A DNA stretch of 64,000 bases, from NCBI GenBank assembly GCA_964482645.1, contig CAYZYQ010000002.1, positions 21,111 through 85,110 on the forward strand, read 5' to 3'. The notes beneath the pieces were generated by a model that saw only the letters and a program-made list of their open reading frames with translations, did no database searches and was not told where the DNA came from. Numbering within the stretch: position 1 is the stretch's first letter; each line of letters opens with the position of its first letter. This DNA is from an uncultured Lentisphaeraceae bacterium (lineage in GTDB: Bacteria > Verrucomicrobiota > Kiritimatiellia > RFP12 > UBA1067). The translations under genes were made by a program, and so were the position numbers. Shown here in pieces: positions 3,788 through 10,431 of the stretch.

Positions 3788-5089
3788 ATGATGAAAGACC
3801 TGAAAGCCGCCTATCGTACCATCGAATCCGACCACTTCGCGCCGGCGATGGAAATTTCGTTCATCGACGGGGAATCCCGTCAGACGCTCCGTTACGAAAA
3901 AGTGACGTGGAACATCGGCGGTGAGGAAAAGGGGCTTCGCTATGGCGAAAACCCTGGTCAAGAAGCCGCGCTCTACAAACTCGTGAACGGCAACTTGGCG
4001 TTGGGCGATGTGGAACTGCTCGGCCCGAACCAGCCGCTCGCCTCGGTGCCCGAACTCCTCCAGAGCGGCAAGCACCCTGGCAAAACGAACGTGACGGATG
4101 CGGACAACGCGCTGAACATCCTCCGCTACTTGATGGACAAGCCGACGGCCGTTATCGTCAAGCACAACAACCCCTGCGGCGTTGCCACGGGCACGACGTT
4201 GGCGGAGGCCTATTTCCGCGCGAACAAAGCCGACCGCCTCGCGGCGTTCGGCGGTTGCATCGCCCTGAATCGCGACTGTGACCTTGAAACGGCGAAATTG
4301 ATTCTCGAAAACTACGCCGAAGTCGTTGTGGCACCCGACTTCAAGCCGGGTGTGATGGATCTCTTCGCCACGAAGAAGAATCTCCGCGTCTTCCGTATTC
4401 GCAACATGCAGCGTCTGGCCGACTACGTGGCGAAACACGTGATCGAGTTCAAGAGCCTTGTCGACGGCGGCCTCGTGGCGCAGACCTCGTTCTGCGCGAA
4501 CGCCCGCCGGCCCGAAGACTTGATGCCCGCCTACTGCAATCGCAAGATCGTGGACAAGGCGACGGGGGAAACGACGTATCGGGAATACAAAATCAAGCGT
4601 TTGCCGACGGCGAAGGAATACGAAGATCTCGTATTCGGTTGGCTTGTCGAGGCCGGTGTGACGTCGAACAGCGTCCTTTACGTCAAGGATGGCGCGACGG
4701 TGGGCATCGGCACGGGTGAACAGGATCGCGTGGGCGTTGCCGAAATCGCGCGTGACAAGGCGTACACGAAACACGCGGACTGGATTGCGTGGGAAACGTA
4801 CGGCAAGCCGTTCAACGATCTGAAGTTGGCGTTTGGCGAAACGGACGGCACGAAGAAGCAGGCTGAAATCATGGAACAGACCCGCGCCGAGAAAGGCGGA
4901 TTGCCGGGTTGCGCGATGGTGTCGGATGCGTTCTTCCCCTTCCGCGACGGTGCGGAGGTGGGCATTCGCGAGGGGATCACGTCGATCGTCCAGCCTGGCG
5001 GCGCCATCCGCGACTGGGATGTGATCGACTGCTGCAACGACGCGAACGTGGCCATGGTCTTCACCGGCCAGCGCTCTTTCCGTCACTGA
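3788..5089 (+). CDS. purH: AICAR formyltransferase (PurH AICARFT domain only; no N-terminal IMP cyclohydrolase/MGS domain)
   Basis: Internal ATG of ORF 3641..5089. Contains LRYGENPGQEAALY, VKHNNPCGVA and SDAFFPFRDG...QPGGAIRD...FTGQRSFRH, the hallmark AICARFT blocks. RYGENP sits only about 50 aa from the start. Confidence 0.8.
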   Translation: MMKDLKAAYRTIESDHFAPAMEISFIDGESRQTLRYEKVTWNIGGEEKGLRYGENPGQEAALYKLVNGNLALGDVELLGPNQPLASVPELLQSGKHPGKTNVTDADNALNILRYLMDKPTAVIVKHNNPCGVATGTTLAEAYFRANKADRLAAFGGCIALNRDCDLETAKLILENYAEVVVAPDFKPGVMDLFATKKNLRVFRIRNMQRLADYVAKHVIEFKSLVDGGLVAQTSFCANARRPEDLMPAYCNRKIVDKATGETTYREYKIKRLPTAKEYEDLVFGWLVEAGVTSNSVLYVKDGATVGIGTGEQDRVGVAEIARDKAYTKHADWIAWETYGKPFNDLKLAFGETDGTKKQAEIMEQTRAEKGGLPGCAMVSDAFFPFRDGAEVGIREGITSIVQPGGAIRDWDVIDCCNDANVAMVFTGQRSFRH

Positions 5090-5152
5090 GGCGCGTGAGG
5101 TGATAGGTGAGTGGTCGAGTTGGCGATTGTGAATTGACGAAGGCCGACTGAG

Positions 5153-6079
5153 ATGAAGGTCGTGTCGCTATTCAGCGGAGCCGGCGGACTGGATCTGGGC
5201 TTTCAGTGGGCGGGGCATGAGGTCGTATGGGCGAACGACCTCTATGTCGACGCCGTGGCGTCGTATCGCGCCAATGTGGGCGGCCACATTGTCTGTAAAG
5301 ACATTGCCGAGATTCCAAGCTCGGACATTCCGGACGGCGACATTGTTATTGGCGGATTCCCCTGTCAGGGATTCTCGGTCGCCAATACAAAGCGGCACGA
5401 ATCTGATTCGCGCAACAAACTCTACCTTCAGCTCCTCCGTGTCGTGAAGGACAAACGGCCCCGCTTCTTCCTTGCGGAAAACGTGAAGGGAATTCTGCAT
5501 TTTGCCGGCGGTAAAGTGTACGAGCAGATTGTGGCGGACATGAAAGCGCTTGGTTATCATGTCAAGAGCCGTTTGTTCAATGTTGCAGACTATGGTGTTC
5601 CGCAAAGGCGCGAGCGTGTCATTTTCGTCGGTGTGCGAGACGACGTGGCGTTTGAGTACGAGTTTCCAACTGCGACGCACGATAAGCACGGCGACAATGG
5701 ACTTCCGCAATGGATTGGGGTGGGGGAAGCGTTGGCGCAGATTGCCGATCCCGACGGACAAAACGATTTGCCCAACCACGTCTATTCAAAGTACAAGCTC
5801 AATTTCAACGGTTACATCGGCCATCGTCCGCTCGATCCTGCCAAGCCCGCACCGACGGTGACGGCGCGTGGGGACGACAAGGGGGGCGTGGTGATTCTGC
5901 CGCATCCAAACGGGTTGCGACGGATGACGGGGCGTGAACTTGCGACCGTGCAGAGTTTTCCGTTGGATTTCGAGTTCAAGGGACCGTTGTCGTCCGTCTA
6001 TCGCCAAATTGGGAATGCCGTTCCGCCTAGATTCGCCGAGGCGCTGGCGAGACAGTTCAACGGGTTTGACGAGAATTAG
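5153..6079 (+). CDS. DNA (cytosine-5)-methyltransferase (M1)
   Basis: Motif I FSGAGGLDLGF, motif IV GGFPCQGFS, motif VI ENVKGIL, motif VIII QRRERVIFVG, motif IX TGRELATVQSFP, motif X GNAVPP. Confidence 0.9.
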   Translation: MKVVSLFSGAGGLDLGFQWAGHEVVWANDLYVDAVASYRANVGGHIVCKDIAEIPSSDIPDGDIVIGGFPCQGFSVANTKRHESDSRNKLYLQLLRVVKDKRPRFFLAENVKGILHFAGGKVYEQIVADMKALGYHVKSRLFNVADYGVPQRRERVIFVGVRDDVAFEYEFPTATHDKHGDNGLPQWIGVGEALAQIADPDGQNDLPNHVYSKYKLNFNGYIGHRPLDPAKPAPTVTARGDDKGGVVILPHPNGLRRMTGRELATVQSFPLDFEFKGPLSSVYRQIGNAVPPRFAEALARQFNGFDEN

Positions 6080-6101
6080 TAGAAAACATTGGAGAAGGCA
6101 G

Positions 6102-7094
6102 ATGCGATATCTTTTCAAAAGATGTGGGCACCAGGAACTGGGTAGTATGGATGCCGATATGCGTCCGAAACGCGGACAGTATCTGCTGATGAAGATGACG
6201 CCGGAGGTGTTGTCGTTCTTTCCGCCACTTTCCATTACGCAGAAGAACGACTATCGGCTTGTTCCGTTTTTCCCGCTTTATTCTAGGACGAAGGTCTATT
6301 GCCGCTTTGTCTACCACAACGATAAGTTTCATGAGTCCACTGCGACGCAGCCACGAAACGAGTACCGTCTTTATCTGAACAGGGAAGTGCAGGGCGGCGA
6401 GTTGCGGTTTGTTGAGGGCGGGATTGTCGTGTTCCGTCTCGTGGACGAATCTGATTTCAACAGAGGAATGTTCCTTGATTACGCGGGCCCACAGGACGGG
6501 GAGCTTTACAGGGTATATGATGAACGACTACGAGCGGGCAGGCTTGATTCCGTAGGGAATTACGGTGTGTGTGACGGAGCGCTCAAGGATTTTGAATGTC
6601 GTGTCGCAAACGTCTCTAGCGAAACTTCAGATGTCGTGGTCTCGGAGACAGACATTGAGTACATCTCCAAGAACAGGGACGACGAGGCGGCGTTGTTCAA
6701 CGAAGTTTCGTTTCGTGATTTTGTGATGGTTGGCTACCGGAGGAAGTGCGCCGTCACGGGAACATCCATTGAACATGGTTCGTTGTGTAATCTTGAAACC
6801 GCCCATATCCATCCAAAGGCGCATGGTGGTACTTTCCTGCCGAGTAACGGGATGATGCTTTGCCGTGATTTCCACTGGGCGTTTGACCATGGCTTCTTTA
6901 CCCTTTCGGACGATTTGGTAGTCATCGTTTCAAAGAAGGTTTCAAGCGAAATGCTTGCTCCATACGACGGCAAGCGAATTTTTGTCCCTTCCAATCCATT
7001 TTTCCGTCCTGACATTGCAAGCGTGAGATGGCATCGCGAACATGTGTTTGAGTGCTTCGGGCAGATTCGGGCAATGAAAGTGGAACGCACATGA
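6102..7094 (+). CDS. HNH-family nuclease, putative restriction endonuclease with an N-terminal DNA-recognition-like domain
   Basis: ATG 6102 is preceded by GGAGAAGG, inside ORF 5934..7094. The C-terminal CAVTGTS...LETAHIHPKAHGG...NGMMLCRDFHWAFDHGFF is an HNH (HNH_2-like) motif. The gene sits between methyltransferase genes, and its stop overlaps the M2 start (ATGA). Confidence 0.75.
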   Translation: MRYLFKRCGHQELGSMDADMRPKRGQYLLMKMTPEVLSFFPPLSITQKNDYRLVPFFPLYSRTKVYCRFVYHNDKFHESTATQPRNEYRLYLNREVQGGELRFVEGGIVVFRLVDESDFNRGMFLDYAGPQDGELYRVYDERLRAGRLDSVGNYGVCDGALKDFECRVANVSSETSDVVVSETDIEYISKNRDDEAALFNEVSFRDFVMVGYRRKCAVTGTSIEHGSLCNLETAHIHPKAHGGTFLPSNGMMLCRDFHWAFDHGFFTLSDDLVVIVSKKVSSEMLAPYDGKRIFVPSNPFFRPDIASVRWHREHVFECFGQIRAMKVERT

Positions 7095-8152
7095 ACGTAA
7101 TTGATCTGTTTTCCGGATGCGGCGGGTTGTCCAAGGGATTCATGGATGCCGGATGCAGAGTGCTGCTTGGAGCGGATGTCGATCAGGCTGCTCTTGATTC
7201 GTTTGAAAAAAACCATCCGGGTTCGATTGGTCTTAGGAGAAGTCTTGCCGAAGAGGCAACGTTCGATAGAATGCGCGAAATCATCGGCGACAGAAAAGTG
7301 GATTTGATTGTCGGCGGACCGCCGTGCCAGGGTTTTTCACTTACCGGCCCGAGAAACTTCGATGATGAGCGCAACAAGCTGTATCTGTCGTATATCAAGG
7401 CCGTCGAGATGTTCAGACCGAAGGGATTTCTCATCGAAAACGTTCCTGGCATGGCAACGTTGTACAAAGGTATGGTAAAAGATGAAATCTTGAAACGGTT
7501 TACGAGGCTTGGCTACAATATTGATTGCAGAATTTTGTGCGCTGCAGACTATGGCGTACCTCAGACTCGCCGCCGTCTTGTATTCATTGGTGTTCGCAAA
7601 GAACTTAATGCCGTCTCGTTTCCGCGGCCTCTTCTTGAGCCGAGCGAATACGTCACGAGCCGCGAGGCCATCGATGACCTCCCGCCATTAACTGATTGTC
7701 TCGGTGAGGAAGTTTCGCGATACGACCGTCCGCCGCGGACGCAATACCAAAAACTCATGCGCGGCAGTTGTACGATACTGTCGAATCACACCGCAACCGC
7801 GCACAAGGATTTCGTCAAGGAAGTGATTGCCCAAGTCCCAGAGGGCGGAAATTACAAAGACCTCCCAAAAGGAGTTGGCGAACATAGGCGGTTTCATATG
7901 GCTTGGACAAGATGTGACGGACACAAGCCATCTCGCACGATTGATACAGGGCATCGCAATTATTTCCACTACGAATATAATCGGATTCCGACCGTTCGCG
8001 AATGCGCCAGACTACAGTCGTTTCCAGATGACTTTGTCTTCATCGGCACACGGACGCAACAGTATCGACAGGTTGGTAACGCGGTTCCACCTTTGCTGGG
8101 ATTCGTCCTTGCAAAACATCTGATGGGACTCGTGGAGGGGCGGAATGCCTAA
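7091..8152 (+). CDS. DNA (cytosine-5)-methyltransferase (M2)
   Basis: FSGCGGLSKGF, GGPPCQGFS, ENVPGM, QTRRRLVFIG, TVRECARLQSFPDDF, GNAVPP. Start is ATG 7091 inside ORF 7052..8152. Confidence 0.9.
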   Translation: MNVIDLFSGCGGLSKGFMDAGCRVLLGADVDQAALDSFEKNHPGSIGLRRSLAEEATFDRMREIIGDRKVDLIVGGPPCQGFSLTGPRNFDDERNKLYLSYIKAVEMFRPKGFLIENVPGMATLYKGMVKDEILKRFTRLGYNIDCRILCAADYGVPQTRRRLVFIGVRKELNAVSFPRPLLEPSEYVTSREAIDDLPPLTDCLGEEVSRYDRPPRTQYQKLMRGSCTILSNHTATAHKDFVKEVIAQVPEGGNYKDLPKGVGEHRRFHMAWTRCDGHKPSRTIDTGHRNYFHYEYNRIPTVRECARLQSFPDDFVFIGTRTQQYRQVGNAVPPLLGFVLAKHLMGLVEGRNA

Positions 8153-9380
8153 ACTCCGCACAATAGACCTTTTCGCCGGGTGTGGCGGACTGATGGACGG
8201 TTTTATGCAAAGCGGTCGTTTCGATACGCTTGCCTGTGTGGAGTGGGAGGAAGCACCATGCCGAAATCTCGTGAACCGCTTGAAAACGAAATGGGGACAC
8301 GCAAACGCCGAGAGGGAAGTCCTGCGCTTCGACATTCAGCGAACGGATGAACTGTTCTATGGCTACGACGATCCGAAGTTCGGACGTGGCGACGGCCTTG
8401 ACAAGCTCGTTGGCGGGATGAAGATAGATGTCATTATCGGCGGGCCGCCTTGTCAGGCCTATTCGCTTGCGGGTAGAATCCGCGACGAGCATGGTATGCG
8501 CGATGACTATCGTAACTATCTGTTCGAGAGCTATCTTGAAGTCGTTAAGCGTTACCAACCAGACTTCTTTCTGTTCGAGAACGTAATTGGGATGTTGTCG
8601 GCGGCGCCGGACGGAAGACCGATAACGAAAAAGATACGAGCAAAGTTTTCAGATGCGGGTTATGTCGTTCTCCCAGATTTTAGGGATGCGGTTTTTTCGC
8701 TTTCAGACTACGGCATCCCCCAAAATCGTCGTCGCATTATCATTTTGGGCGTTCGCGAGGAAAGTTTTCCGAATACGTCCGCAGATATCATTCGAGATTT
8801 CTATGGACGTATCATGCCATCATACCGTCAGCCGAAACGAACGGTTGAAGAGGCGATTGGCGATTTGCCCAAATTGATTCCGACGATAGAGAGGGGGAAG
8901 GTGGTCTATCATCGTCAAGGCGAACGAATCGTTCCCAACCATTTCCCGAGAAAGCACAGCGTTCGCGATGTCAAGGTGTTTAAGTTGCTTACCGAAGACA
9001 TCGAGCAAGGTCGATTTGAGTATACGTCGATTGATCGTTTGAAAAAACTGTATACGGAAGTCACGGGTAAAACAAGCAACATTCACAAGTACTACGTTCT
9101 CCGCCGTGATCAGCAGAGCAATACAATTCCGGCTCATCTGCATAAAGACGGATTTCGACACATCCATCCTGATTCAGAGCAATGCAGGACATTGACGGTA
9201 CGCGAAGCCGCTAGGCTACAAACTTTTGACGACGATTATGAGTTTTATGGAAGTATGGGCGAACAATACAAAATGATTGGAAACGCTGTGCCGCCTGCGT
9301 TTGCAAAAATTCTTGCGCGGGCGATATGTGAAATCCATATGAAGTATTGTCCGTGGAAGATACACGATCTAAACACCTAA
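8145..9380 (+). CDS. DNA (cytosine-5)-methyltransferase (M3)
   Basis: FAGCGGLMDGF, GGPPCQAYSLAGR, ENVIGMLS, QNRRRIIILG, TVREAARLQTFDDDY, GNAVPP. There is an 8-nt overlap with M2. Confidence 0.9.
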   Translation: MPKLRTIDLFAGCGGLMDGFMQSGRFDTLACVEWEEAPCRNLVNRLKTKWGHANAEREVLRFDIQRTDELFYGYDDPKFGRGDGLDKLVGGMKIDVIIGGPPCQAYSLAGRIRDEHGMRDDYRNYLFESYLEVVKRYQPDFFLFENVIGMLSAAPDGRPITKKIRAKFSDAGYVVLPDFRDAVFSLSDYGIPQNRRRIIILGVREESFPNTSADIIRDFYGRIMPSYRQPKRTVEEAIGDLPKLIPTIERGKVVYHRQGERIVPNHFPRKHSVRDVKVFKLLTEDIEQGRFEYTSIDRLKKLYTEVTGKTSNIHKYYVLRRDQQSNTIPAHLHKDGFRHIHPDSEQCRTLTVREAARLQTFDDDYEFYGSMGEQYKMIGNAVPPAFAKILARAICEIHMKYCPWKIHDLNT

Positions 9381-9393
9381 AGAAGGAATTCAG

Positions 9394-10431
9394 ATGAATC
9401 GAAAAAGTCTTTTGCTTGTGTGCGCCCTTGTGGCGGGGAGTGGGCGCGTCTACGCCGAGAAGACGTGGTTTCCCGTGGAGGATGCCGCGCCCGTGGCATT
9501 GTTGCCGCCGCTTTTGGCAACGCCACAGTCGGTGGACGGACAAAGCGCACTTGTGGCGACGCGGACGCCGGAGGCCTATGTAACGTTGAGCGTTCCAAAC
9601 GCCGCGCCGGATGCGTCGTATGCGGTTTCCTATCCACTCACGCCGGCACGTCCGATTTCAGATACCTCGCTCGTTCAGGCGGATGTCGTGAACGCGGGCG
9701 ACGCTTCGGTCTCGTTGGGCATTGCGTTCCGTTTGAAGTCGGGCGGCGAATTTCGCTGGAATGTCAGTCTGCCGCCTGGTCGTCGGCAGGTCACCCTGTC
9801 GCCGGCGGATTGCGTGTCCGCCGTGCCGACTAATCGGTGGGCGGATGTCACCGGGCTTGTCCTGTCCGTCGCCGCGCGGACATCGGATGTCTGCAGTTCG
9901 CTGACGGTTCGCAACTTGTCCGCCATCGAGGCGTTCCAAATGCGCAGTCGGGGTGGTTGCCCATGGCCGGAGGAACGCGAACTCCTGCCCGCCGATCGGA
10001 CGCCCTGTGTCTTCACCTCGCGGGCGGGCGAGTTCAAAGGCAAGCCAGATGCGCGATCGTTCAAAATTCCCGTTGATGGCCGGGCACTCTTCGGCGATCT
10101 GCCGTTCCCCAGTTCGGGCGGTAAGCTCGTGCTGACCATCCGCGCCACCGATCCGCAGACGCGCGCCGTGGAAATCGGCTTCCATCAGTCCGATGGGGCA
10201 GTCTGGGGTTCGACCGCGCTGGCCATCAGCACGGAGTGGCAGGAGATCGTGTTGCCGTTCCGCCGGATGCAGTATTTCCGCCATTGGGGACTGCCCGCGC
10301 TCCCGCCCGACGCGAAACCGGACGCGATGAAATTTACGTCCGTCCACTTCTGTTTCGGAAAATGGCTGTGCGGGGATACGCTCGATCTGCCCCACGGCTT
10401 TGAGGTCAAGTCCATCAAGATCACGCAGTAG
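9394..10431 (+). CDS. secreted hypothetical protein
   Basis: RBS AAGGAA, then a signal peptide MNRKSLLLVCALVAGSGRVYA. GC3-rich frame. No family recognised. Confidence 0.5.
   Translation: MNRKSLLLVCALVAGSGRVYAEKTWFPVEDAAPVALLPPLLATPQSVDGQSALVATRTPEAYVTLSVPNAAPDASYAVSYPLTPARPISDTSLVQADVVNAGDASVSLGIAFRLKSGGEFRWNVSLPPGRRQVTLSPADCVSAVPTNRWADVTGLVLSVAARTSDVCSSLTVRNLSAIEAFQMRSRGGCPWPEERELLPADRTPCVFTSRAGEFKGKPDARSFKIPVDGRALFGDLPFPSSGGKLVLTIRATDPQTRAVEIGFHQSDGAVWGSTALAISTEWQEIVLPFRRMQYFRHWGLPALPPDAKPDAMKFTSVHFCFGKWLCGDTLDLPHGFEVKSIKITQ

What the first reader, a model, noticed from the sequence alone, without database searches (positions are those of the whole stretch)
6102..7094. The nuclease combines a C-terminal HNH_2-like motif with an N-terminal region reminiscent of EcoRII-N/B3 DNA readers
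The C-terminus has CAVTG...AHIHPKAHGG...NGMMLCRDFHWAFDHGFF, the HNH variant common in restriction and modification-dependent nucleases.

The first roughly 115 aa (YLFKRCGHQELGS...GQYLLMKMTPEVLSFFPPLS...CRFVYHNDKFHESTATQPRNEYRLYL) recall, from memory, the EcoRII N-terminal / B3-like pseudobarrel pattern: Y.KR....D.G, a FP.(I/L) block, and YYNS...TRNE.RIT.

If that is correct, this is a reader-domain plus HNH fusion. It could behave as a type IIE-like enzyme or as a methylation-state-sensing enzyme, which would bear on why three methyltransferases are linked to it.
Basis: inference. Interest (0 to 1): 0.6.

Follow-up and report, generated by a model that had tools for sequence, protein, structure and literature searches.

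The report
B3-reader plus HNH restriction enzyme
The gene encodes a restriction enzyme that joins an EcoRII-type (plant-B3-like) DNA-reading barrel to an HNH cutting module otherwise known from methylation-dependent enzymes. It always travels with two cytosine methylases, and I found no published study of this widespread combination.

Summary
ORF 6102-7094 (+) encodes a 330-aa protein. Its C-terminus is a bona fide HNH_2 nuclease, closest to the cutting modules of TagI, VcaM4I and ScoMcrA. Its N-terminal ~170 aa (not ~115) form a DNA-binding pseudobarrel of the EcoRII-N / BfiI-C / plant-B3 kind.

Evidence for the barrel:
- Two AlphaFold models have pLDDT 91-93.
- The top 28 Foldseek hits are all B3 or B3-like domains.
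- Profile-profile alignment to EcoRII-N gives 86% probability.
- The residues EcoRII-N uses to read T-G-G and clamp the backbone are conserved: K6, Y71, R85, E87, R89 correspond to K23, Y85, R94, E96, R98.

The family has over 480 sequence clusters in many phyla. In 67 of 71 loci the gene is adjacent to orthologues of M2 and M3. M1 is an add-on seen only in two close relatives.

The best reading is a Type IIS-like enzyme. The B3 reader binds an unmethylated asymmetric site, HNH cuts, and M2 and M3 each protect one strand. Type IIE or modification-dependent action is unlikely.

A tentative target is GCTGG/CCAGC. That word is selectively purged from Clostridia carrier genomes but not from non-carrier relatives. 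This window's genome shows no depletion, so the site is not established for this enzyme.

It is a new variant of a known kind.

The parts
6091..6098 (+). Ribosome-binding site GGAGAAGG, 4 nt upstream of the ATG of the nuclease gene
   Evidence: Read directly from the sequence.
6102..7094 (+). R gene: 330-aa B3-like + HNH restriction endonuclease (P0001)
   Evidence: More than 480 full-length homologue clusters of 300-340 aa. AF2 model has pLDDT 91.2 and pTM 0.85.
6102..6611 (+). Residues 1-170: DNA-binding pseudobarrel of the B3-like / EcoRII-N type, the predicted specificity domain
   Evidence: Domain-only AF2 model has pLDDT 93.4 and pTM 0.89. The top 28 Foldseek PDB hits are all B3 or B3-like: EcoRII-N E = 9e-5, BfiI-C TM 0.59/0.62, UbaLAI-B3, ARF/VAL1/TEM1/FUS3/RAV1. 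hhalign against an EcoRII-N profile gives 86% probability.
6117..6182 (+). K6 (equivalent to the EcoRII-N clamp-phosphate Lys23) and the N-arm equivalent (Q11-E12-L13-G14 ... R24-G25-x-Y27). The EcoRII base readers His36/Gln37 are not conserved here.
   Evidence: hhalign residue mapping. Invariant columns in A1 and A2. Roles of the EcoRII-N residues come from PMC2770665 and PMC3973309.
6312..6374 (+). C-arm equivalent: Y71 ... P84-R85-N86-E87-Y88-R89-L90-Y91. These align with EcoRII-N Y85, R94, E96 and R98, which read T-G-G of CCTGG.
   Evidence: alignment. (invariant or near-invariant across the family). (structural roles in EcoRII-N and BfiI-C).
6612..6746 (+). Residues 171-215: linker strand and helical lead-in (helices 182-211) that belongs to the nuclease module
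   Evidence: AF2 secondary structure. The profile alignments to VcaM4I and TagI already start at residues 191-192.
6747..7055 (+). Residues 216-318: HNH_2 beta-beta-alpha-metal nuclease with its C-terminal extension. Predicted catalytic residues are H235 (6804-6806), N249 (6846-6848) and H258 (6873-6875).
   Evidence: Pfam PF13391, 38 bits. TagI 6ghs and VcaM4I 6yex match by sequence and by fold. H235, N249, H258, D256 and D262 are invariant in 42 homologues.
7091..8152 (+). M2: C5 cytosine methyltransferase, a conserved partner. Its ATG overlaps the R stop codon (ATGA at 7091-7094).
   Evidence: Pfam DNA_methylase 233 bits. Overlap read from the sequence. Orthologues at 50-86% identity lie next to R in 67 of 71 loci.
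8145..9380 (+). M3: second C5 cytosine methyltransferase, a conserved partner with a different target-recognition region. It overlaps the end of M2 by 8 bp.
   Evidence: M2 and M3 are 31% identical, in the catalytic motifs only. Orthologues at 51-87% identity lie next to R in the same loci.
5153..6079 (+). M1: third C5 methyltransferase, an accessory that is not part of the conserved module
   Evidence: Pfam 240 bits. An orthologue lies upstream of R only in L007 (Lentisphaeraceae) and L010 (Faecalibacterium sp. CAG:74), and is absent from about 65 other loci. L004 carries a 55-aa remnant.

Best explanation
The gene encodes the nuclease of a conserved three-gene Type II restriction-modification module (R + M2 + M3). 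In this genome the module has picked up a fourth gene, M1.

**Proposed mechanism**
- The N-terminal B3-like pseudobarrel grips the major groove of a short, asymmetric, unmethylated site as a monomer. It uses an N-arm and a C-arm as EcoRII-N and BfiI-C do.
- The C-arm keeps the EcoRII-N residues that read T-G-G. The N-arm has diverged.
- The tethered HNH module is the same cassette found in TagI, VcaM4I and ScoMcrA. It has no specificity of its own and cuts at or near the bound site, so the enzyme is Type IIS-like. A double-strand break probably needs transient dimerisation or two sequential nicks.
- M2 and M3 have unrelated target-recognition regions.

**Shown here:** the domain folds, homology to EcoRII-N at motif level, intact catalytic residues, obligate linkage to M2 and M3, and operon coupling.

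**Inferred:** which DNA is cut, where, and the oligomeric state.

**Tentative target:** 5'-GCTGG-3'/5'-CCAGC-3'. I put this at about 0.6 for the Clostridia clade and about 0.4 for this particular enzyme.
For: **Fold**
- The full-length AF2 model has pLDDT 91.2. Its Foldseek hits split into TagI/VcaM4I (HNH half) and EcoRII-N/BfiI-C/UbaLAI-B3/plant B3 (N half).
- In the domain-only model the top 28 hits are all B3-type. After that, hit probability drops to 0.03 or less.

**Sequence**
- hhalign of the N-domain profile against a 20-sequence EcoRII-N profile gives probability 86% and E = 4.8e-6.
- It maps K6 to K23, Y27 to Y41, Y71 to Y85, R85 to R94, E87 to E96 and R89 to R98. These residues are invariant or nearly so across the family.
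- Their DNA-contact roles are documented in PMC2770665 and PMC3973309.
- Distant relatives of the N-domain give sub-threshold Pfam hits to EcoRII-N and BfiI_DBD.

**Nuclease**
- HNH_2 scores above the Pfam cut-off.
- H235, N249 and H258 are invariant.

**Restriction-modification logic**
- Of 71 loci from at least 8 phyla, 67 have M2 and M3 orthologues adjacent to R. The other four are cut by contig ends (3) or carry a divergent methylase set (L079).
- M2 and M3 are more conserved than R (50-87% against 31-88% identity).
- The genes overlap: ATGA between R and M2, and 8 bp between M2 and M3.
- M2 and M3 share only the catalytic motifs, as expected for strand-specific methylases of an asymmetric site.
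- R is frameshifted in two loci while the methylases stay intact (L058, L065). This is typical decay of a toxic restriction gene.

**Target site**
- In an unbiased scan of all 512 strand-merged 5-mers, CCAGC/GCTGG ranks 2, 2 and 3 (maximal-order Markov model) in loci from Clostridia, Bacteroidota and CPR hosts. Single-base neighbours are not depleted.
- Far from the locus it ranks 1 of 512 in G003 (11 observed, 156 expected) and 1 to 4 of about 510 in G004, G007, G001 and G002.
- Eight non-carrier relatives show ratios of 0.92-1.23 under the maximal-order model (0.72-1.29 under order 2).
- The 24 unselected Clostridia loci differ from the non-carriers with Mann-Whitney p = 2e-4.
- GCTGG differs from EcoRII's CCTGG only at position 1, which is the position read by the diverged N-arm.
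- M2/M3 orthologues (55% and 51% identity) in Lactococcus plasmid p275D pair with a PLD + B3 nuclease. A Streptococcus thermophilus system of the same composition is assigned GCTGG through REBASE (PMC12322248 supplement).
Against: **No biochemistry exists.** DNA binding, cleavage position and methylation sensitivity are all inferred.

**Sequence and structure caveats**
- Pfam's own EcoRII-N and B3 models do not hit this protein even at E <= 10.
- hhalign against a single EcoRII sequence was not significant with the shallower profile.
- Foldseek TM-scores are moderate (0.5-0.7, rmsd 3.5-5 A).
- The closest relatives of the HNH module are all modification-dependent enzymes.

**Weaknesses of the GCTGG inference**
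- There is no depletion in this window's genome (ratio 1.2-1.57) or in its 88%-identical Lentisphaeraceae relative.
- There is none in carriers from Bacilli, Omnitrophota, Saccharibacteria or Arcicella, nor in 4-6 of the 11 Clostridia carriers.
- I chose several of the carrier genomes because their loci already looked depleted.
- Another restriction system shared by those gut Clostridia could be the cause.
- The identity between M2 and the REBASE GCTGG methylase was not established.
Confidence: 0.75

Rival explanations
1. Modification-dependent (Type IV / IIM) enzyme. The B3-like domain would sense a methylated or otherwise modified site and the HNH would cut modified DNA, as TagI, VcaM4I and ScoMcrA do. 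The neighbouring methylases would be unrelated or would mark a non-target pattern.
For: The nuclease module is homologous only to those of modification-dependent enzymes: NF045808 partial hit, TagI, VcaM4I and ScoMcrA. The same B3 subfamily is also fused to McrB-like AAA_5 GTPases.
Against: R is co-inherited with the same two m5C methylases in 67 of 71 loci across phyla, with overlapping reading frames. An enzyme that attacked their product would kill the host. Known B3-like readers in restriction enzymes bind unmodified sites, and m5C abolishes EcoRII-N binding (PMC2770665). No SRA, PUA, EVE or SBD pocket domain is present.
Confidence: 0.06
2. Type IIE-like enzyme in the EcoRII sense. The B3 domain would be an allosteric effector or autoinhibitory domain, and specificity for the cleaved site would reside elsewhere.
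For: The N-domain is most similar in sequence to EcoRII-N, the archetypal effector domain. UbaLAI uses the same domain in a Type IIE mechanism (PMC5766183).
Against: Apart from the B3 domain, the protein has only the helical lead-in and the HNH core. Homologous modules in TagI and VcaM4I have no sequence specificity of their own. There is no EcoRII-C (PF09019) or MvaI-like catalytic domain. A requirement for two sites, as in BfiI or FokI, remains possible, but that belongs to Type IIS behaviour.
Confidence: 0.07
3. Site-specific nicking enzyme, or a selfish homing-type HNH gene that merely lodges in restriction-modification operons, rather than the cognate double-strand-cutting partner of M2/M3.
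For: A single HNH site per monomer cuts one strand. Some HNH enzymes are nickases (the Gme HNH nicking endonuclease appears among weak fold hits). Earlier scan notes describe other B3-HNH genes wedged into unrelated operons.
Against: This family keeps a fixed partnership with M2 and M3 in either gene order (R-M2-M3 or M2-M3-R) over very large phylogenetic distances. That points to functional coupling rather than opportunistic insertion. Selective loss of a 5-mer from carrier genomes implies lethal cleavage pressure.
Confidence: 0.07
4. In this particular genome the cassette is a recent, possibly silent passenger, with no restriction activity expressed.
For: The island has 50% G+C against 62% for its flanks. 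Neither the host genome nor its closest carrier relative shows depletion of the candidate site. An extra methylase, M1, has been added.
Against: All four reading frames are intact and tightly coupled. Every family-invariant residue is present. The same four-gene arrangement is kept at 86-88% identity in another Lentisphaeraceae genome.
Confidence: 0.1

Closest known systems
EcoRII N-terminal effector domain (EcoRII-N, PF09217; PDB 1na6, 3hqf) and UbaLAI-N (5o63)
   Same: Both have the same pseudobarrel fold, and EcoRII-N is the best Foldseek hit. Motif-level homology covers Y-x-K-(R/K)-L, FP-x-(L/I), Y-(Y/H)-N and R-N-E-x-R. The clamp lysine and the C-arm residues that read T-G-G are conserved. 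Reading is probably blocked by m5C.
   Different: In EcoRII and UbaLAI the domain is an effector or autoinhibitor attached to a sequence-specific PD-(D/E)XK domain (Type IIE). Here it is fused to a non-specific HNH module and must supply all the specificity. The N-arm base readers His36/Gln37 are not conserved. This protein scores below every Pfam threshold for PF09217.
BfiI / BmrI (Type IIS, ACTGGG; PLD nuclease + C-terminal B3-like domain; PDB 2c1l, 3zi5)
   Same: This is the closest working analogy. A monomeric B3-like reader of an asymmetric site is tethered to a non-specific nuclease, and the system uses strand-specific methylases. BfiI-C is the best hit by TM-score (0.59/0.62).
   Different: The nuclease is a metal-dependent HNH, not a metal-independent PLD. 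The domain order is reversed (reader N-terminal). The B3 subfamily differs.
TagI, VcaM4I/TspA15I-group, ScoMcrA/SprMcrA, EcoKMcrA (reader + HNH modification-dependent enzymes)
   Same: The C-terminal ~130 aa, comprising the helical lead-in, HNH_2 core and C-terminal extension, is the same cassette by sequence (E = 1.5e-8 with the family profile) and by fold. The overall 'reader-linker-HNH' plan is the same.
   Different: Their readers (SRA, PUA/EVE, SBD, NEco) bind modified bases and they have no cognate methylase. This protein has a B3-like reader of unmodified DNA and obligate methylase partners.
NgoFVII/NgoAVII/CglI-type PLD + B3 nucleases, including the Lactococcus lactis p275D enzyme WP_081144481.1
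   Same: The p275D enzyme sits beside orthologues of M2 (55%) and M3 (51%). The same methylase pair therefore serves two different B3-containing nucleases, presumably at the same or a related site.
   Different: The nuclease is PLD rather than HNH. The B3 domain belongs to the RE_NgoFVII_C family rather than the EcoRII-N-like subfamily. NgoAVII and CglI need an ATPase partner.
LlaJI (two m5C methylases + R1 McrB-like GTPase with an N-terminal B3-like domain + R2). The details of LlaJI are from my own knowledge, not from a tool.
   Same: LlaJI has two strand-specific m5C methylases for an asymmetric site and a B3-like reader. Relatives of this N-domain fused to AAA_5 (P0337, P0362) have that architecture.
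   Different: LlaJI cleavage is GTP-dependent and uses a separate nuclease subunit. Here one polypeptide carries both reader and nuclease.

Membership tests
B3-like DNA-binding pseudobarrel superfamily (EcoRII-N, BfiI-C, NgoAVII-C, plant B3) | Seven-stranded open beta-barrel with two helices (pseudobarrel fold) | tested here: met
   AF2 models have pLDDT 91.2 and 93.4. The top 28 Foldseek PDB hits are all B3 or B3-like, with probability 0.66-1.00 and TM up to 0.70. Unrelated folds follow at probability 0.03 or less.
B3-like DNA-binding pseudobarrel superfamily (EcoRII-N, BfiI-C, NgoAVII-C, plant B3) | N-arm and C-arm DNA-gripping elements with conserved clamp-phosphate Lys/Arg | tested here: met
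   hhalign maps the invariant K6 to EcoRII K23, and the C-arm Y71/R85/E87/R89 to Y85/R94/E96/R98. EcoRII R81 has no conserved equivalent (column 68 is variable).
B3-like DNA-binding pseudobarrel superfamily (EcoRII-N, BfiI-C, NgoAVII-C, plant B3) | Sequence-specific binding of double-stranded DNA | not testable with these tools
   Needs EMSA or a co-crystal structure.
Pfam EcoRII-N (PF09217) as a curated sequence family | Score above the Pfam gathering threshold | tested here: not met
   There is no hit at E <= 10 for residues 1-120, 1-200 or the full length. Profile-profile comparison gives 86% probability. Relatives P0254 and P0334 score 18-21 bits against a cut-off of 25. This is a sister subfamily, not a PF09217 member.
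HNH_2 (PF13391) beta-beta-alpha-metal nucleases | Profile match above threshold and conserved His...Asn...His catalytic motif | tested here: met
   38 bits against a cut-off of 21, residues 216-268. H235, N249 and H258 are invariant in 42 homologues. Fold matches TagI and VcaM4I.
Type IIS restriction-modification system | Separate recognition and cleavage domains in one polypeptide | tested here: met
   The model shows two domains, and the Foldseek hits separate cleanly by domain.
Type IIS restriction-modification system | Cognate methyltransferase(s), typically two for the two strands of an asymmetric site | tested here: met
   M2 and M3 orthologues are adjacent in 67 of 71 loci. Their target-recognition regions are unrelated to each other. 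The genes are translationally coupled.
Type IIS restriction-modification system | Asymmetric recognition sequence | tested here: inconclusive
   The asymmetric 5-mer GCTGG/CCAGC is selectively depleted in 5 of 11 Clostridia carriers and in pooled loci, but not in non-carriers. It is not depleted in this genome or in several other clades.
Type IIS restriction-modification system | Cleavage at a defined distance outside the site | not testable with these tools
   Needs run-off sequencing of digests.
Type IIE enzymes (EcoRII-like) | A sequence-specific catalytic domain that is allosterically activated by a second copy of the site bound to the effector domain | tested here: not met
   No EcoRII-C (PF09019) or other specific catalytic domain is present. 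Only the HNH_2 module lies C-terminal of the B3 domain.
Modification-dependent reader-HNH enzymes (TagI, VcaM4I, ScoMcrA, McrA) | Reader domain that binds a modified base (SRA, PUA/EVE, SBD, NEco) | tested here: not met
No PUA or SRA hits cover the N-domain.
Modification-dependent reader-HNH enzymes (TagI, VcaM4I, ScoMcrA, McrA) | Stand-alone gene without a cognate methyltransferase of the same site | tested here: not met
   There is obligate linkage to two m5C methylases.

The most novel reading that the evidence does not exclude
This would be a widespread but uncharacterised class of Type IIS-like restriction enzyme. An EcoRII-N-type reader that is blocked by m5C drives the HNH cutting cassette so far studied only in modification-dependent enzymes. 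The class would recognise 5'-GCTGG-3'/5'-CCAGC-3', that is, EcoRII's CCTGG with the first base re-specified by a remodelled N-arm. The same M2/M3 methylase pair also serves an unrelated PLD + B3 nuclease in Firmicutes. The methylase pair would then be the constant core, with reader-nuclease modules exchanged around it.
Probability: 0.35. Interest if true: 0.7.

Novelty: new variant of a known kind. Interest (0 to 1): 0.55.

Why it matters
- **Classification.** All three building blocks are known: a B3-like reader, an HNH_2 cassette and paired m5C methylases. This combination has no published biochemical or structural study that I could find.
- **Experimental handle on B3 specificity.** The N-domain keeps EcoRII-N's T-G-G-reading C-arm while changing the N-arm. 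This gives a natural experiment on how B3 domains are re-specified, including those of plant transcription factors.
- **Practical use.** If the target is GCTGG with offset cleavage, this would be a small (330-aa), single-chain, m5C-sensitive enzyme. Whether that specificity is new among characterised restriction enzymes could not be checked here without REBASE. It would also explain the GCTGG-centred DNA modification seen in some Firmicutes.
- **Genome annotation.** Hundreds of 'HNH endonuclease' entries next to two dcm-like genes can be re-labelled as restriction enzymes.

Tried and rejected
1. **Family libraries on the N-terminal region.** Pfam, NCBIfam and PADLOC scans of residues 1-120, 1-200 and 121-220 gave no meaningful hit. 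The only hit was a spurious 2OG model.
2. **PDB by sequence.** Sequence and profile searches found only the HNH half, plus a chance TFAM hit.
3. **First hhalign attempt.** The full-length profile against a single EcoRII-N sequence was not significant (probability 0.5%). It became informative only with a domain-only, more diverse profile and an EcoRII-N family profile.
4. **CCTGA/TCAGG lead.** Earlier scan notes on similar cassettes proposed this target. It is not depleted in this genome (ratio 1.05 under the maximal-order model) or in any of six host groups of this family (0.94-1.47). I rejected it for this family.
5. **k-mer scan of this genome.** It shows many depleted palindromes (GGWCC, CTCGAG, CCGCGG, ACGCGT, GCATGC) but nothing attributable to this system.
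6. **Methylase specificity from solved structures.** Only the catalytic motifs of M1, M2 and M3 match M.HaeIII, M.HhaI and DNMT1. The target-recognition regions are unmatched.
7. **Phage and plasmid collections.** No full-length member of the R family was found in 50,697 phage or 72,556 plasmid records.
8. **Linking M2 to the GCTGG methylase.** I tried to close the chain from M2 to the S. thermophilus methylase WP_179959070.1 through cluster look-ups. That accession did not surface.
9. **Depletion in hosts of the PLD variant.** The p275D plasmid and the metagenome contigs are too small and too AT-rich to be informative.
Full report
**1. What is there**

The finding's coordinates are right.
- A longer frame from GTG 5934 overlaps the upstream methylase and is not supported.
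- The ATG at 6102 has GGAGAAGG 4 nt upstream, and all homologues start at the same M-(R/K)-Y.
- The gene lies in a four-gene, same-strand block:

| Gene | Coordinates |
|---|---|
| M1 | 5153-6079 |
| R | 6102-7094 |
| M2 | 7091-8152 |
| M3 | 8145-9380 |

- R/M2 overlap by ATGA and M2/M3 overlap by 8 bp.
- All three M proteins are full C5 cytosine methyltransferases (Pfam 186-241 bits).
- The block has about 50% G+C in a 62% G+C neighbourhood, so it looks horizontally acquired.

**2. The C-terminal half**

- Pfam HNH_2 matches residues 216-268 (38 bits, cut-off 21).
- The wider region 190-318 is homologous to the nuclease modules of modification-dependent reader-HNH enzymes:
  - a partial hit to NCBIfam 'phosphorothioated DNA-binding restriction endonuclease' (76 bits, far below its 180-bit cut-off, C-terminal part only);
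  - TagI (6ghs) and VcaM4I (6yex) by sequence and by fold.
- H235, N249, H258, D256 and D262 are invariant in 42 diverse homologues, so the active site looks intact.

**3. The N-terminal half**

No curated library recognises it, and PDB sequence searches see nothing there. Structure prediction settles the question.
- *Full-length model.* It has pLDDT 91.2 and pTM 0.85. Its N-terminal part matches:
  - EcoRII-N (3hqf, E = 5.5e-5);
  - BfiI-C (3zi5, TM 0.61);
  - UbaLAI-B3 (5o63);
  - plant ARF, VAL1 and TEM1 B3 domains.
- *Domain-only model.* A separate model of residues 1-175, built from a more diverse 24-sequence alignment, has pLDDT 93.4 and pTM 0.89.
  - Its Foldseek list is unambiguous: the first 28 hits are all B3 or B3-like pseudobarrels.
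  - After those, hit probability falls to 0.03 or less.

**4. Is the resemblance homology?**

I checked my recollected EcoRII-N sequence against PDB 1na6/3hqf and it was 100% identical. I then built a 20-member EcoRII-N profile.
- hhalign of the N-domain profile against it gives probability 86% and E = 4.8e-6 over residues 4-92 against EcoRII 21-101.
- Against the single EcoRII sequence the probability is 46%.
In terms of the published EcoRII-N-DNA structure (PMC2770665; PMC3973309):

| This protein | EcoRII-N | Role in EcoRII-N |
|---|---|---|
| K6 | K23 | clamp phosphate |
| Q11 | N28 | N-arm |
| G25-x-Y27 | G39-x-Y41 | N-arm |
| Y71 | Y85 | contact to the T methyl group |
| R85 | R94 | contact to the last G |
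| E87 | E96 | contact to its paired C |
| R89 | R98 | contact to T O4 |

- All of these are invariant or nearly invariant across the family, down to 23% pairwise identity.
- The EcoRII N-arm base readers H36 and Q37 are not conserved.
- So the C-arm half of the EcoRII-N reading head (T-G-G) is retained and the N-arm half has been remodelled.

An exhaustive profile search of 1.8 billion representative proteins found 303 relatives of the N-domain. Some carry other effectors:
- McrB-like AAA_5;
- GHKL ATPase;
- HTH + HNH;
- DUF6339.

Three of these relatives give sub-threshold Pfam hits to EcoRII-N or BfiI_DBD, which adds a transitive link.

**5. Genomic logic**

- The family has at least 482 clusters at 90% identity, all 300-340 aa and annotated at most as 'HNH endonuclease'.
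- A scan of one genome per species found 76 loci. They come from:
  - Lentisphaeraceae (88% identity, the closest);
  - Kiritimatiellia, Clostridia, Bacilli, Bacteroidota, Campylobacterota and Cyanobacteria;
  - Omnitrophota and several CPR lineages.
- Of the 71 loci with a near-full-length R, 67 have orthologues of both M2 and M3 immediately adjacent, in the order R-M2-M3 or M2-M3-R.
- Three more are truncated by contig ends, and one (L079) has a divergent methylase set.
- M2 and M3 are more conserved than R (50-87% against 31-88% identity).
- M2 and M3 are only 31% identical to each other, confined to the catalytic motifs.
- M1 occurs only in the Lentisphaeraceae relative and in one Faecalibacterium contig, so it is an accessory.
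- R is frameshifted in two loci that keep their methylases (L058, L065).

Together this is the signature of a classical restriction-modification module for an asymmetric site with one methylase per strand.

**6. Mechanism proposed**

- The protein is built like BfiI: a monomeric B3-like reader tethered to a non-specific nuclease.
- It is not Type IIE, because there is no second specific domain for the B3 domain to regulate.
- C5-methylation of either strand abolishes EcoRII-N binding (PMC2770665).
- The oligomeric state and cut position are unknown.

**7. Candidate target**

Earlier scan notes on similar cassettes suggested CCTGA/TCAGG. I tested this and it is not depleted in this genome or in any host group of this family.

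An unbiased scan of all 512 strand-merged 5-mers in the family's loci gave CCAGC/GCTGG instead.
- *Clostridia loci.* It ranks 2 of 512 under the maximal-order Markov model, with 132 observed against 318 expected at order 2.
- *Other host groups.* It ranks 2 in the Bacteroidota group and 3 in the CPR group.
- *Word specificity.* Single-substitution neighbours stay near 1, except CCAGG and CTAGC. All eight 6-mer extensions are equally depleted.

Sampling 28-100 kb of carrier genomes well away from the 13-kb loci, mostly from the same contigs, confirmed genome-wide purging in some carriers:

| Carrier genome | Observed / expected | Ratio (order 3) | Rank |
|---|---|---|---|
| G003 | 11 / 156 | 0.07 | 1 of 512 |
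| G004 | 8 / 37 | 0.22 | 1 of 508 |
| G007 | 35 / 85 | 0.41 | 2 |
| G001 | 43 / 88 | 0.49 | 3 |
| G002 | 56 / 152 | 0.37 | 4 |

- Eight non-carrier relatives of G002 and G003 had ratios of 0.92-1.23 under the maximal-order model.
- The 24 unselected Clostridia loci differ from these non-carriers with Mann-Whitney p = 2e-4.
- GCTGG is EcoRII's CCTGG with only the first base changed, the position read by the diverged N-arm. It has one C on the top strand and three on the bottom, which fits two methylases.

Independent circumstantial support:
- M2 and M3 orthologues (55% and 51% identity) on Lactococcus lactis plasmid p275D flank a PLD + RE_NgoFVII_C (B3-like) nuclease. The same module recurs in metagenome contigs.
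- A Streptococcus thermophilus system of the same composition (two C5 methylases plus a 'PLD-containing' nuclease) is assigned GCTGG from REBASE at >= 75% identity (PMC12322248 supplement).
- A Listeria monocytogenes lineage shows GCTGG-centred modification of unknown origin (PMC10687267). L. monocytogenes strains encode a methylase 80% identical to the Lactococcus M2 orthologue.

Caveats:
- I could not show that the S. thermophilus methylase is the orthologue.
- Several carrier genomes were picked after seeing their loci.
- There is no depletion in this window's genome (ratio 1.2-1.57) or its Lentisphaeraceae relative.
- There is none in carriers from Bacilli, Omnitrophota, Saccharibacteria or Arcicella.
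- The M3 target-recognition region is only 30-45% identical between this genome and the Clostridia clade.
- The island itself carries only 2 GCTGG/CCAGC sites in 4.2 kb (0.47 per kb) against 3.06 per kb for the window. That is suggestive, but it is confounded by base composition.

I rate GCTGG at about 0.6 for the Clostridia clade and about 0.4 for this enzyme.

**8. Comparison with the literature and verdict**

Four full-text searches found these B3-like restriction domains:
- EcoRII and UbaLAI (PD-(D/E)XK);
- BfiI, NgoAVII and CglI (PLD);
- the Menshen NsnA sensors.

None described a B3-like + HNH restriction enzyme. REBASE itself could not be consulted.

The system is best classed as a new variant of a known kind: a modular Type II(S) enzyme made from known parts in an unstudied combination.

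Noticed in passing
window 5153-6079 (M1); L007:5049-5969; L010:1176-3007: M1 is not part of the conserved module. An orthologue lies upstream of R only in the Lentisphaeraceae relative (88%) and in a Faecalibacterium sp. CAG:74 contig, which has two M1-like copies plus a partial M2-like gene. L004 keeps a 55-aa methylase remnant upstream of R. The M1 target-recognition region (residues ~173-254) matches no solved methylase.
   Followed up: partly
L182 (Lactococcus lactis plasmid p275D, NZ_CP016702.1) 5548-9386; L183-L190: Orthologues of M2 (55%) and M3 (51%) pair with a different nuclease, a 349-aa PLD (RE_NgoFVII) + RE_NgoFVII_C B3-like enzyme flanked by HTH regulators. In gut-type metagenome contigs they also sit beside a Vsr gene. 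The same methylase pair therefore serves two unrelated reader-nuclease designs.
   Followed up: partly
P0337, P0362 (AAA_5), P0334, P0373 (HATPase_c_3), P0304/P0328/P0344 (extra N-terminal region or HTH + B3 + HNH_2), P0270/P0316 (DUF6339 + C-terminal B3; L179-L181): The same EcoRII-N-like B3 subfamily keeps the R(N/D)ExR motif when fused to other effectors. These are McrB-like GTPases (LlaJI.R1-like architecture), GHKL/MORC-type ATPases, and DUF6339 proteins. The DUF6339 proteins lie beside McrBC genes (L179 only) and Z1/DUF4420 genes (L179, L180).
   Followed up: partly
L058:6001-6970 (Virgibacillus halodenitrificans JCM 12304); L065:6001-6913: The R gene is split by a frameshift or deletion while the adjacent M2 and M3 orthologues remain intact. 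This is the usual decay pattern of a restriction gene.
   Followed up: no
whole genome G000 (genome.fa): The host genome is strongly depleted in several words: GGWCC (ratio 0.26), CTCGAG (0.05), CCGCGG (0.12), ACGCGT (0.13), GCATGC (0.13), GAGCCC/GGGCTC (0.22) and GCACGC/GCGTGC (0.38). This points to long-term pressure from other restriction systems. GCTGG/CCAGC is over-represented (1.2-1.57).
   Followed up: partly
G002, G006, G008, G011 samples (L083-L086, L101-L103, L161-L163, L166-L168, L175-L177): Several gut Clostridia carrier genomes also show strong depletion of other asymmetric words: GAGAC/GTCTC (BsmAI-type site), CCCGC/GCGGG, ACGCC/GGCGT and GAATC/GATTC. These are probably footprints of further Type IIS systems.
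   Followed up: no
window 5000-9500: G+C falls from about 0.62 to 0.48-0.54 across the four-gene block and recovers immediately after 9500. This marks the cassette as a compact foreign island inserted between a purH-like gene and a cluster of secreted-protein genes.
   Followed up: partly
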